From Candidatus Jordarchaeales archaeon (lineage in GTDB: Archaea; Asgardarchaeota; Jordiarchaeia; Jordiarchaeales; Freyrarchaeaceae), in the NCBI GenBank assembly GCA_038858525.1, contig JAWCFL010000005.1, positions 30,001 to 62,000 on the forward strand: 32,000 nt of DNA, read 5' to 3'. A program made the position numbers and the translations under genes. Below are positions 14,790 through 17,961 of the stretch, piece by piece. The notes below the pieces were generated by a model. That model saw only the letters and a list, made by a program, of their open reading frames with translations, had not been told where the DNA came from and made no database searches. Position 1 is the stretch's first letter; each line of letters opens with the position of its first letter.

Positions 14790-14861
14790 AGCACACACGA
14801 AGCCAACCGAGAAAACCAAACTCTCCAGCAAAACAATCACTCAACAAACAAGAACAAATAG

Positions 14862-14946
14862 CGGCCCCGAGGGGATTCGAACCCCCGACACCCGGCTTAG
14901 GAGGCCGGTACCCTCTCAGAACACATCCTGGCTGGGTTACGGGGCC
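14862..14946 (-). tRNA. tRNA-Arg(CCT) with a 10-nt D-loop intron (14915-14924, position 20a/21)
   Basis: GGCCCCG TA ACCC AGCCAGGAT [GTGTTCTGAG] A GGGT A CCGGC CT CCT AA GCCGG GTGTC GGGGG TTCGAAT CCCCT CGGGGCC G. All four stems pair and the mature length is 75 nt. Confidence 0.95.
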
Positions 14947-15046: not shown

Positions 15047-15143
15047 GCGGGCGTAGTCCAGCCTGGTCTAAGACGTCGGCCTGCCACGCCGAGGACCCGG
15101 GCGGCTAACACAAAGCCAGGGACTTCAAATCCCGGCGCCCGCA
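15047..15143 (+). tRNA. tRNA-Gly(GCC) with a 22-nt T-arm intron (15102-15123, position 53/54)
   Basis: GCGGGCG TA GTCC AGCCTGGTCTA AGAC G TCGGC CT GCC AC GCCGA GGAC CCGGG [CGGCTAACACAAAGCCAGGGAC] TTCAAAT CCCGG CGCCCGC A. Confidence 0.95.
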
Positions 15144-16751: not shown

Positions 16752-17016
16752 AAAGCTCTCTTCCCCTCTTTTTCTTTTCCATGTTGTTTCCGTTTTCGGA
16801 AGCATCCCGAATTCTCGGTTGGCAGGATCGAAAATGGCTGTCCTTCCTCATATCGTAACAACCAATTTTTTGTCTTAAATCTGTCCAGAAGGGGATGCTA
16901 AGTCAAACCTTAATATCCCTTGTAATCCTATTAATTGCTAACTCCACTTTCCCTTAGACCTCTTTTTTCATGCTTTCACAGGCATACCTTAATTCAATTT
17001 GGTATCAGGGAATAAA

Positions 17017-17032
17017 AGAAAGAAATATATAA
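17017..17032 (+). promoter_or_regulatory. BRE-TATA promoter of tRNA-Trp
   Basis: Purine-rich AGAAAGAA followed by ATATATAA, about 27-34 nt upstream of 17059. Confidence 0.65.
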
Positions 17033-17058
17033 CGTAGCAGTGAAAGATTTCCCTTGAT

Positions 17059-17257
17059 GGGGGCGTAGCGCAGCTAGAACGGCTTATAAAAAGTGGTAAA
17101 GTAGCGCGGCTGGCTCCAGAAGCAATGAGAACAAACTGGTGCGCTGACCGGAGATGATGACCTTCTGGAGCTCCGAGCTGGAGAGGAGTACCCCCAGAAG
17201 CACCAGTTGGTCGTGGGTTCACCCTTTACAGGGGGCCTTAAAGTCCCACCGCCCCCA
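17059..17257 (+). tRNA. tRNA-Trp(CCA) with four introns: 17078-17100 (18/19), 17120-17201 (37/38, containing nested 17184-17199) and 17221-17240 (56/57)
   Basis: Spliced product: GGGGGCG TA GCGC AGCTAG|GTA GCGC G GCTGG CT CCA G|A CCAGT TGGTC GTGGG TTC|AAGT CCCAC CGCCCCC A. This is a 74-nt canonical cloverleaf (199-23-82-20=74). Confidence 0.93.
17121..17179 (+). ncRNA. Intron-encoded box C/D guide RNA for tRNA-Trp Cm34 and Cm39
   Basis: AGC stem, C ATGAGAA, 12-nt guide CAAACTGGTGCG, D' CTGA, spacer, C' ATGATGA, 12-nt guide CCTTCTGGAGCT, D CCGA, GCT stem. The N+5 rule lands on C39 (17203) and C34 (17116). Confidence 0.92.
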
Positions 17258-17274
17258 TCAAGTTCACTATTTTT

Positions 17275-17961
17275 CTACTTTAATTCGCGATACTTAGGCT
17301 TCGCTCTGCCCGGAAGCTTTTCCCTAATCATTACGATTTTCTCCGGCTCAAATACTCCACACATGAACTCCGTAATCTGTTGTTCCTTTCTTTTTGCTTC
17401 ATGTATGTTGGGGTAGATCCTTCCTGCAGCTTCTTCATCTTCGTTGCTTAGCGTGCATGCGATGACCGCCCTGTCGAACTCGTCGAGCTGGGTGATGTTT
17501 CTCTCAAATGTCTCAGCAGCTCTCCATGACAAATGAATCATACGGATCCAGTTAAGCCAGCGAGTGTAAAAGTGTGCCTCCTCTGTTTCAGGAGTTCCTT
17601 TTGGGTTGCGGAACTCGCACTCATTCCACCATGGTATCTTCGCGTTAAGCCTTATTGCATGGTCATAAAGTCCCGTATTTATCAACTCGTCAACTAGCCG
17701 CCCGAAAACTAGGAGGTATGCTCCCGCCCTTTCATTGCCTCCTTCGTCGAAAAGCCTCTTACCCATGGAGACCATTTCCTCATCTATTTCTCTCGCAAGT
17801 CTCTCCGCAGCTTCAACTATCCTCCTGAACTTTTCCTCTTCACCTATGTCTCCCATTCTGAGTTTTTCAAGGCTTAAAGACCTAACTAATTCAACTGCTT
17901 CATCAGACAAAAGCAGTTTGAGAATTCTTTCGAAGTTCTCGTCGAACCTATCTCTCCTCAT
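17275..17961 (-). CDS. Hypothetical helical protein, no family recognised
   Basis: 228-aa ORF with RBS GGGGGAGG and natural composition, convergent on tRNA-Trp. Confidence 0.8.
   Translation of the reverse strand: MRRDRFDENFERILKLLLSDEAVELVRSLSLEKLRMGDIGEEEKFRRIVEAAERLAREIDEEMVSMGKRLFDEGGNERAGAYLLVFGRLVDELINTGLYDHAIRLNAKIPWWNECEFRNPKGTPETEEAHFYTRWLNWIRMIHLSWRAAETFERNITQLDEFDRAVIACTLSNEDEEAAGRIYPNIHEAKRKEQQITEFMCGVFEPEKIVMIREKLPGRAKPKYRELK

What the first reader, a model, noticed from the sequence alone, without database searches (positions are those of the whole stretch)
17059..17257. tRNA-Trp(CCA) gene fragmented by four introns
The ends GGGGGCG and CGCCCCCA bracket 199 nt. Removing 17078-17100 (18/19), 17120-17201 (37/38, which itself holds a nested intron) and 17221-17240 (56/57) gives an exact 74-nt tRNA-Trp cloverleaf. 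The 56/57 intron has a full BHB: central helix GGGT/GCCT, bulges TC|A and TA|A, intron helix CCCTT/AGGGG. The 18/19 intron has a relaxed BHB: AGCT/GGTA with one mismatch, bulges AG|A and AA|G. To my knowledge, multi-intron archaeal tRNAs (up to three introns) are mainly described from Thermoproteales. Four excision events in one tRNA, in a probable Asgard-type genome, would be exceptional and are likely missed by standard annotation.
Basis: partly seen in the sequence, partly recalled or inferred. Interest (0 to 1): 0.95.

Follow-up and report, generated by a model that had tools for sequence, protein, structure and literature searches.

The report
Four-intron tRNA-Trp gene in Jordarchaeia
This is the genome's only detectable tryptophan tRNA gene, cut into four short exons by protein-spliced introns (one probably nested inside another); the reading is correct, but such heavily interrupted tRNA genes are already published for this group of Asgard archaea.

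Summary
Joining 17059-17077, 17101-17119, 17202-17220 and 17241-17257 gives a 74-nt tRNA-Trp(CCA). ARAGORN and Infernal both miss the unspliced gene, and no second tRNA-Trp was found in the genome.

Ten related genomes carry the same gene. Exons are conserved, introns vary, and all 105 cloverleaf base-pair cells pair, with five two-sided compensatory changes.

The 37/38 intron is the classical tRNA-Trp box C/D guide intron. Its two guides point at C34 and C39.

[quoted passage not shown] Removing it creates a perfect BHB for the remaining 66-nt intron, so four excisions is the best model (about 0.65). One-step relaxed splicing is the rival.

A metatranscriptome contig from a sister species joins the last base of the T-loop intron to G19. 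That supports cleavage at two predicted sites, and the junction implies a 135-nt circular RNA.

The organism is a hot-spring Jordarchaeia archaeon. Papers from 2024 and 2026 already report up to five introns per tRNA gene in this lineage, and nested BHB introns are known from other archaea. This scan has also noted four- and five-intron tRNAs elsewhere in this genome. Verdict: a new member of a known kind, of moderate interest.

The parts
17018..17033 (+). Promoter-like block (GAAAGAAATATATAAC). The TATA-like core is centred about 32 nt upstream of position 1 of the tRNA.
   Evidence: Identical in all five family members while the flanks diverge. Calling it a BRE/TATA element is inference from archaeal promoter geometry (own knowledge).
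17059..17077 (+). Exon 1: tRNA positions 1-18 (5' acceptor strand, U8, 5' D-stem strand, D-loop up to G18).
   Evidence: 100% BLAST block of the spliced 74-mer. Conserved in relatives.
17078..17100 (+). Intron 1, 23 nt, at 18/19 in the D-loop. Relaxed BHB: helix AGCU/GGUA (1 mismatch), bulges AG|A and AA|G, 2-bp inner helix.
   Evidence: Same site and same bulges in the sister family, where the helix is AGUC/GGCU or AGUC/GACU. Length varies from 15 to 42 nt among relatives. The 3' cut site (17100|17101) is the junction seen in an RNA contig.
17101..17119 (+). Exon 2: positions 19-37 (rest of the D-arm, 5' anticodon stem, anticodon CCA at 17116-17118).
17120..17201 (+). Intron region at the canonical 37/38 site, 82 nt. 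It consists of a 66-nt box C/D guide intron interrupted by a 16-nt inner intron.
17124..17130 (+). C-box-like AAUGAGA (degenerate).
   Evidence: Conserved as AAUGAG/AAUGAA in the family.
17132..17143 (+). D' guide. It pairs over 9 nt with the intron/exon-3 junction, and the N+5 rule points at C39 (17203).
   Evidence: In L005 the guide changes A to G together with U43 to C in the target.
17144..17147 (+). D' box, CUGA.
   Evidence: Invariant in 11 genomes.
17154..17160 (+). C' box, AUGAUGA.
   Evidence: Invariant in 11 genomes.
17161..17172 (+). D guide. It pairs 11/12 with the exon-2/intron junction, and the N+5 rule points at C34 (17116).
17173..17176 (+). D-box-like CCGA (CGGA, UCGA or GUGA in relatives; the final GA is invariant). 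It is followed by GC, which pairs with the GC at 17122-17123.
17184..17199 (+). Inner (nested) intron, 16 nt. Its BHB has helix CUGG (17178-81) / CCAG (17194-97) and bulges AG|A and AA|G. Its removal places GGAG (17180-83) next to GC|A and completes the outer BHB (CUCC/GGAG, 7-bp outer helix).
   Evidence: Four Watson-Crick pairs in all four genus members, with a compensatory U-A to C-G change at 17179/17196. The hairpin is present in the MFE folds. It is absent from the sister family. Excision is inferred, not shown.
17202..17220 (+). Exon 3: positions 38-56 (3' anticodon stem, variable loop, 5' T-stem, U54 U55 C56).
17221..17240 (+). Intron 4, 20 nt, at 56/57 in the T-loop. BHB helix GGGU/GCCU, bulges UC|A and UA|A, 5-bp inner helix.
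   Evidence: The 3' cut site is the junction seen in an RNA contig of a sister species. The sister family has its T-loop intron at 59/60 instead.
17241..17257 (+). Exon 4: positions 57-73 (rest of the T-arm, 3' acceptor strand, discriminator A73). CCA is not encoded.
17270..17274 (+). T-run 13 nt after the gene; a possible terminator.
   Evidence: Read directly. Its function is inferred.

Best explanation
17059-17257 is the functional, and apparently only, tRNA-Trp(CCA) gene of a hot-spring Jordarchaeia (Asgard) archaeon. It is transcribed as one roughly 200-nt precursor from an upstream TATA-type promoter.

Four introns are removed by the archaeal protein splicing pathway. A two-paralogue, probably (alpha-beta)2, EndA cuts after the second base of each 3-nt bulge of a BHB motif, and RtcB joins the exons. 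Introns 1 (18/19) and 4 (56/57) can be cut independently.

The 37/38 region is processed in order. First, the intron-borne box C/D RNP pairs across both intron borders and directs 2'-O-methylation of C34 and C39. Next, the 16-nt inner intron (17184-17199) is excised through its own BHB. Finally, religation brings GGAG next to GC|A, which completes the BHB of the remaining 66-nt C/D intron, and that intron is then removed.

Shown here: the cloverleaf, conservation and covariation, the BHB geometry, the guide geometry, the presence of the machinery, and RNA evidence for two cut sites in a sister species. Inferred: the excision of the inner intron, the order of events, and the methylations.
For: - The spliced 74-mer is called tRNA-Trp(CCA). 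Exon blocks match at exactly the predicted borders, and no other copy is in the genome.
- Exons are invariant within the genus, while introns differ by indels.
- Across five distinct spliced sequences from two families, 105/105 stem cells pair. Five pairs show two-sided compensatory changes, and all four stems are represented.
- BHB motifs sit at all junctions in all relatives, against null frequencies of 0.001-0.02.
- The inner intron has four Watson-Crick pairs in 4/4 genus members, with a compensatory change. After its removal the outer helix is perfect in 4/4.
- The nested conformer lies within 1.6 kcal/mol of the MFE in three of the four genus members (4.8 in L002). The direct outer-BHB conformer is 9-12 kcal/mol worse in L001 and L004.
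- The guides obey the N+5 rule onto C34 and C39, and the D' guide covaries with position 43. These are the same targets as the known Trp intron guide (PMC4090602, PMC3326292).
- The EndA alpha subunit carries the catalytic Y/H/K and a crenarchaeal-type loop with the conserved Lys. The second paralogue lacks the catalytic His.
- RtcB, fibrillarin, Nop5 and L7Ae are present.
- An RNA-library contig of a sister species joins the last base of intron 4 to the first base of exon 2.
Against: - No spliced-junction reads or mature tRNA were seen.
- The only RNA evidence comes from a related species, from assembled contigs, and shows an off-pathway joint, not exon-exon joints.
- In L002 the outer BHB can form directly (GGAG lies just before GC|A), and in L003 it forms with one mismatch. 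Inner-intron excision is therefore not strictly required everywhere.
- The sister family tolerates one mismatch in this helix.
- The covariation in the inner helix rests on one change shared by two species.
- The C and D boxes are degenerate, and no Rfam family reaches threshold.
- The outer helix of introns 1 and 4 has only 0-1 bp (relaxed motifs).
Confidence: 0.66

Rival explanations
1. Same gene and same machinery, but only three excisions. The 82-nt 37/38 intron is removed in a single step through a relaxed BHB. The 17178-17197 hairpin is then just a structural stem of the intron, or a regulator of guide-versus-splicing folding.
For: - In L002 a perfect direct helix CUCC/GGAG exists without prior splicing, and L003 has one mismatch.
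- The sister family splices this intron with a one-mismatch helix.
- (alpha-beta)2 EndA with the crenarchaeal loop cleaves relaxed motifs (PMC3241643).
- The RNA contig still carries the inner segment.
Against: - In L001 and L004 only 2 of 4 central-helix pairs can form directly, and that conformer is 9-12 kcal/mol above the MFE.
- The inner element keeps exact BHB geometry (4 bp, two 3-nt bulges) in four species despite length changes of 13-17 nt and a compensatory change.
- Its excision product gives a perfect outer BHB in all four species, which would be an unlikely coincidence (null 0.0016 and 0.0039).
Confidence: 0.27
2. A decaying pseudogene or relic. The real tRNA-Trp lies in the unassembled roughly 7% of the genome or is too cryptic to find.
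For: The genome is 92.7% complete in 63 contigs. Standard finders see only about 10 tRNAs, so another hidden gene cannot be strictly excluded.
Against: - Exons are 100% conserved in four species, and the gene covaries correctly across two families.
- The promoter block is conserved, and the guides co-evolve with their target.
- An RNA-library contig carrying a back-joint at two predicted cut sites comes from the locus in a sister species.
- No other Trp-like exon set or anticodon arm sits in a tRNA context.
Confidence: 0.04
3. A chance parse or an assembly chimera.
For: BHB-like geometry alone is common: about a hundred loose matches occur in 236 nt.
Against: The joint null is about 1e-10 for the fixed junctions. 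Independent contigs from other studies carry the same arrangement. Ten homologous loci were found.
Confidence: 0.01

Closest known systems
[quoted passage not shown] 2024, PMC11291895; Goswami et al. 2026 preprint, 10.64898/2026.10.13.758758)
   Same: The same lineage. Multiple BHB introns per gene at non-canonical sites. D-arm introns that software misses. Two EndA paralogues. Up to five intervening sequences per gene.
   Different: Those are census-level studies. The main text of the preprint does not mention tRNA-Trp, box C/D guides or nested introns. An inner intron inside another intron would be counted as one stretch by that census. The 2026 preprint, as far as read, gives no RNA evidence.
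Multi-intron and nested-intron tRNA genes of Thermoproteales (Sugahara et al. 2007/2008, as cited in PMC3728597 and PMC4090602)
   Same: Several BHB introns in one tRNA. In some cases the last BHB forms only after other introns are removed.
   Different: A different phylum.
Box C/D guide intron of archaeal pre-tRNA-Trp (Haloferax volcanii 105 nt; Clouet d'Orval 2001; Singh 2004) and the stable 65-nt circular Trp intron of Sulfolobus solfataricus (Danan 2012, PMC3326292)
   Same: The canonical 37/38 site. Two guides aimed at positions 34 and 39 that pair across the intron borders. A size of 66 nt once the inner intron is removed. C/D RNP proteins present.
   Different: The terminal C and D boxes are degenerate (AAUGAGA, CCGA). 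Position 39 is C, not U. In this genus the BHB of the guide intron is interrupted by a further small intron, and the gene has two more introns.
Ordered BHB processing in Cyanidioschyzon merolae nuclear tRNAs (Soma et al. 2013, PMC3728597)
   Same: Up to three BHB introns in the D-arm, at 37/38 and in the T-loop. The anticodon-loop intron is removed last.
   Different: A eukaryote. The motifs there fold independently and are explicitly not nested.

Membership tests
tRNA-Trp | 74-76 nt cloverleaf with anticodon CCA and the universal bases (U8, A14, G18 G19, U33, G53 U54 U55 C56, A58, C61) | tested here: met
   ARAGORN call on the spliced sequence. The universal bases were read directly from that sequence. 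105/105 stem cells pair in five lineages.
tRNA-Trp | Archaeal/eukaryal Trp identity set: A73 discriminator and G1-C72 (own knowledge) | tested here: met
   G17059 pairs with C17256, and the discriminator is A17257. Aminoacylation itself cannot be tested here.
Archaeal BHB (EndA/RtcB-spliced) tRNA introns | [quoted passage not shown] | tested here: met
   Intron 4, the inner intron, and the outer intron after inner removal have 4/4 pairs. Intron 1 has 3/4 (a relaxed motif). The outer helices of introns 1 and 4 have only 0-1 bp.
Archaeal BHB (EndA/RtcB-spliced) tRNA introns | A splicing endonuclease of a broad-specificity type and an RtcB ligase are encoded | tested here: met
   Two PF01974 paralogues. 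The alpha subunit is most similar to the A. pernix alpha subunit (1.6e-48) and aligns RKPK to the loop holding K44. The second paralogue has Ala in place of the catalytic His. RtcB scores 601 bits. The quaternary structure is inferred.
Archaeal BHB (EndA/RtcB-spliced) tRNA introns | Cleavage and ligation actually occur at the predicted sites | tested here: inconclusive
   One RNA-library contig of a sister species ends intron 4 at its predicted last base and restarts at G19. That covers two of the eight cut sites. No exon-exon junction was observed.
Box C/D guide RNA in the tRNA-Trp intron | C/D and C'/D' box pairs | tested here: inconclusive
   C' (AUGAUGA) and D' (CUGA) are canonical and invariant. 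The terminal C (AAUGAGA) and D (CCGA, with variants) are degenerate, and only the final GA is invariant. The best Rfam C/D hit, sR40, scores 22.3 bits against a threshold of 50.
Box C/D guide RNA in the tRNA-Trp intron | Guides of about 9-12 nt whose 5th base upstream of D or D' pairs with positions 34 and 39 | tested here: met
   D guide: 11/12 pairs, pointing at C34. D' guide: 9 pairs, pointing at C39. This holds for both guides in L001-L004; in L005 it was shown for the D guide (10/12, C34), and the D' guide covaries with its target (8-nt match).
Box C/D guide RNA in the tRNA-Trp intron | Fibrillarin, Nop5 and L7Ae present; Cm34 and Cm39 present in the tRNA | tested here: inconclusive
   All three proteins are found. 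The modifications cannot be tested with these tools.
Heavily interrupted Asgard tRNA genes (Jordiarchaeia) | The genome belongs to the lineage, and most of its tRNA genes escape or confuse standard finders | tested here: met
   The closest named relatives are Candidatus Jordarchaeia MAGs, with EndA 78-91% identical. The tRNA covariance model finds only 5-12 hits per genome in this family and 7-10 in its sister family, against about 24-45 in most other families of the phylum.
Nested/ordered BHB introns | One intron's BHB can form only after another intron is removed | tested here: met
   Met by computation only. In L001 and L004 the outer helix has 2/4 pairs before removal of the inner intron and 4/4 after it. 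L002 is an exception, because its direct helix is already perfect.

The most novel reading that the evidence does not exclude
In Jordarchaeia, tRNA-Trp maturation may be an obligatorily ordered cascade: inner intron, then the C/D guide intron, then (in species L004) a 42/43 intron whose BHB spans the new splice junction. The pathway may also regularly yield a 135-nt circular RNA made of exon 2, the guide intron, exon 3 and the T-loop intron. That circle could be the stable trans-acting guide for Cm34 and Cm39, so part of the transcripts would be sacrificed to modify the rest. Alternatively it could show that EndA cuts single bulges of different introns independently and that RtcB cross-ligates them at the tRNA elbow.
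Probability: 0.15. Interest if true: 0.65.

Novelty: new member of a known kind. Interest (0 to 1): 0.4.

Why it matters
This is the only tRNA-Trp gene that could be found in the genome, and two standard finders miss it. Genome-quality rules that count tRNAs, and any inference of missing decoding capacity, will therefore mislead for this lineage (own knowledge of the MIMAG criterion).

The locus also gives a clean natural series of intron gain:
- Three introns in the sister family.
- Four in this genus, where the extra one is an inner intron.
- Four in the sister genus, where the extra one is a tandem intron at the same site.
- Five in one species.

All gains sit around one ancient box C/D guide intron. 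That makes splicing order, guide-versus-BHB folding and recent intron gain directly testable with one small RNA.

Tried and rejected
- **Standard finders.** ARAGORN with and without introns, and Rfam at gathering and at E<=5, give no call on the locus.
- **BHB scan alone.** It is far too permissive to be evidence by itself.
- **Reverse splicing order.** Cutting 17120-17185 first, using GGAG plus AG|G, leaves a 16-nt remnant with no BHB (reasoned).
- **A BHB formed between introns 1 and 4, to explain the circular joint.** The four bases upstream of the two bulges do not pair (by inspection, L001 and L003).
- **L005 38-nt insert.** No BHB appears at any equivalent offset in the unspliced RNA. 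One appears only after removal of the 67-nt intron.
- **Metagenome scan for more homologues.** Of 70 hits, only 4 were relevant, and 3 of those duplicate known types.
- **Promoter-based genome-wide survey of cryptic tRNA genes.** Upstream regions of 12 tRNA genes share no usable consensus, so it was abandoned. I therefore did not measure the intron load of the other tRNAs myself.
- **Uninterrupted Trp-type anticodon arms.** None of the 58 sits in a credible tRNA context.
- **RNA run X15.** It has no contig over 17074-17100 or 17227-17257 and no exon-exon joints. Lack of cover in contigs proves nothing, and depth figures per contig cannot be compared between parts.
- **Supplementary tables of the preprint.** They are not held.
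- **tRNAscan-SE and SPLITS.** Neither was available.

Full report
**Observation.**
Joining 17059-17077, 17101-17119, 17202-17220 and 17241-17257 gives 74 nt. ARAGORN calls this tRNA-Trp(CCA), and it fits the standard cloverleaf at -34.6 kcal/mol.

The unspliced locus is invisible to several tools:
- ARAGORN, with or without its intron option.
- Rfam covariance models at the gathering threshold.
- Rfam even at E<=5.

BLAST of the spliced sequence against the whole 2.09-Mb assembly finds only the four exon blocks, at exactly the predicted borders, and no second copy. None of the 58 uninterrupted Trp-type anticodon arms in the genome sits in a credible tRNA context.

**Comparative evidence.**
The same gene is present in three genomes of the genus, one of the sister genus and six of the sister family.
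- Within the genus the exons are identical. The three intron regions differ by substitutions and by indels in their loops.
- A 16-nt promoter-like block about 25-40 nt upstream is invariant.
- The sister-family genes also splice on paper to 74-nt Trp cloverleaves.
- Over five distinct spliced sequences, all 105 stem cells pair. Five pairs carry changes on both sides, and all four stems are represented. In every helix the two strands are separated by at least one intron in the DNA.

This rules out both a chance parse and a pseudogene.

**The splice motifs.**
A BHB-like geometry alone is common; about a hundred loose matches occur in 236 nt. I therefore asked only whether the junctions dictated by the cloverleaf carry the motif.
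- **Intron 4 (56/57):** helix GGGU/GCCU, bulges UC|A and UA|A, and a 5-bp inner helix.
- **Intron 1 (18/19):** helix AGCU/GGUA with one mismatch, bulges AG|A and AA|G, and a 2-bp inner helix.
- Both motifs are kept in every relative.
- Random junction pairs in this genome meet the same criteria with frequencies 0.020 (intron 1) and 0.0010 (intron 4).
- The outer helices are only 0-1 bp, so these are relaxed motifs.

**The 37/38 intron.**
This is the classical tRNA-Trp guide intron. It contains the following elements, in order:
- A degenerate C box (AAUGAGA).
- A 12-nt guide.
- D' (CUGA).
- C' (AUGAUGA).
- A second 12-nt guide.
- A degenerate D box (CCGA).
- A 2-bp closing stem.

The D guide pairs 11/12 with the exon-2/intron junction and puts C34 at the fifth pair. 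The D' guide pairs over 9 nt with the intron/exon-3 junction and puts C39 there. In the sister genus the D' guide has G where this genome has A, matching C43 in place of U43 in the target.

These are the positions modified by the Haloferax Trp intron guide (PMC4090602; PMC3326292). Fibrillarin, Nop5 and L7Ae are encoded. A weak Rfam C/D hit (sR40, 22.3 bits, below threshold) has the same ends, 17121-17177.

**The fourth intron.**
As it stands, the 82-nt intron cannot form a proper BHB in this genome. Only 2 of 4 central pairs are possible, and that conformer is about 11 kcal/mol above the MFE.

A 16-nt segment, 17184-17199, has its own BHB: helix CUGG/CCAG, with bulges AG|A and AA|G. Removing it puts GGAG directly before GC|A and yields a perfect outer BHB (CUCC/GGAG, 7-bp outer helix, 3-bp inner helix) around a 66-nt intron.

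Evidence for this model:
- The arrangement holds in all four genus members although the segment is 13-17 nt long.
- The helix shows one compensatory change, U-A to C-G at 17179/17196.
- The inner hairpin is part of the MFE fold in three of the four.
- The sister family lacks the segment and forms the outer helix directly with one mismatch. The inner intron is therefore a genus-level gain.

Against an obligatory two-step path: in L002 the direct helix is already perfect, and in L003 it has one mismatch. I put the four-excision model at about 0.65 and single-step relaxed splicing at about 0.27.

**Related variants.**
- Species L004, confirmed in two independent metagenome assemblies, has a fifth 16-nt intron at 42/43. 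Its helix (GACC/GGUU, 3-bp outer helix) is complete only after the 37/38 intron is spliced.
- The sister genus has a 38-nt insert flanked by a 9-nt repeat. After removal of its 67-nt guide intron, a second BHB (one mismatch, 5-bp and 4-bp flanking helices) forms at the same 37/38 site.
- The T-loop intron lies at 56/57 in this family but at 59/60 in the sister family.

**Enzymes and lineage.**
- The genome has two EndA paralogues.
- One resembles the A. pernix catalytic subunit (1.6e-48). It keeps the Tyr/His/Lys triad and aligns RKPK to the crenarchaeal loop. The Lys of that loop confers broad substrate range (PMC3241643).
- The other paralogue has Ala at the catalytic His position.
- RtcB is present.
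- The closest named relatives are Candidatus Jordarchaeia MAGs.
- The tRNA model finds only 5-12 genes per genome in this family and 7-10 in the sister family, against about 24-45 in most other families of the phylum.

**RNA and DNA from public runs.**
The stretch is held by hot-spring metagenomes of several studies. Contigs from two studies other than the likely source cover the locus without rearrangement: one spans the whole stretch and one covers 16925-17508.

One metatranscriptome holds a 165-nt contig from an L003-like relative.
- It runs from 17102 through the guide intron, exon 3 and the T-loop intron to that intron's last base.
- It then continues directly with G19 and the next 30 bases.
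- The 30-base overlap implies a 135-nt circle. That is exactly exon 2 + intron 2 + exon 3 + intron 4 of L003.

This places RNA ends at two predicted 3' cut sites. It is not an on-pathway product. Mis-circularised exon-containing RNAs have been reported in Sulfolobus (PMC3326292).

Caveats:
- It is an assembled contig from another species.
- The number of reads over the joint is unknown.
- DNA cannot be formally excluded as its source.

**Novelty.**
- Valentin-Alvarado et al. 2024 found introns in 92-95% of tRNA genes of Atabey- and Freyarchaeia.
- A 2026 preprint reports 2.0-2.4 intervening sequences per gene in Jordi- and Freyrarchaeaceae, up to five in one gene, D-arm introns often missed, and two EndA paralogues.
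- Nested BHB introns are known in some archaea, and the Trp guide intron has been known for 25 years.
- Notes from this scan report four- and five-intron tRNAs and BHB introns in mRNAs elsewhere in this genome. I did not check them.

What is new here is the per-gene anatomy: an inner intron that interrupts the BHB of the conserved guide intron, a 3-4-5 intron series among close relatives, and the back-joined RNA. Verdict: a new member of a known kind.

Noticed in passing
L003-type locus (G002:C2), equivalent to window 17101-17240: A metatranscriptome contig implies a 135-nt circular RNA made of exon 2 + the C/D intron + exon 3 + the T-loop intron. The joint links the 3' cut site of the T-loop intron to G19. 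It could be a mis-ligation by-product or a stable guide-carrying circle.
   Followed up: partly
whole genome G000 and relatives: Only about 5-10 tRNA genes are detectable by Infernal or ARAGORN in a 92.7%-complete genome. Counts are equally low in the sister family, and also low in a few other families of the phylum (f13, f16, f18). Most tRNA genes must be cryptic.
   Followed up: partly
window 15047-15143 (+): A tRNA-Gly(GCC) gene with a roughly 22-nt insert in the T-arm (Rfam 41.8 bits). ARAGORN misses it.
   Followed up: partly
window 14861-14946 (-): ARAGORN calls this tRNA-Leu(GAG). The Infernal alignment instead shows an anticodon loop CUCCUAA, which would make it tRNA-Arg(CCU), with about 12 extra bases in the D-loop. 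It is probably a D-loop intron that shifted ARAGORN's parse.
   Followed up: partly
L004 (G003:C2), also L051 and L065: The sister species has a fifth 16-nt intron at 42/43 in tRNA-Trp. Its BHB includes G37 and A38, so it is complete only after the 37/38 intron is spliced.
   Followed up: yes
L005 (G004:C42) and L066: The sister genus has no inner intron. It has instead a 38-nt insert flanked by a 9-nt direct repeat (GGCACCAGC) that duplicates the 3' splice junction. This yields two successive introns at 37/38, and the repeat looks like a footprint of how the insert arose.
   Followed up: partly
L091-L096 (sister family): tRNA-Trp there has three introns. The 18/19 intron is at the same site with the same bulges but is 38-42 nt long. 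The T-loop intron is at 59/60 rather than 56/57, and CCA is encoded.
   Followed up: yes
L044 (metagenome contig Ga0209394_1000006): A more distant archaeal tRNA-Trp has an identical C' box and D guide. It has a second intron that appears, by eye, to lie in the 5' anticodon stem at about 28/29.
   Followed up: no
G000:C17:33266-34718: Nop5 and fibrillarin are adjacent genes, the usual archaeal arrangement.
   Followed up: no
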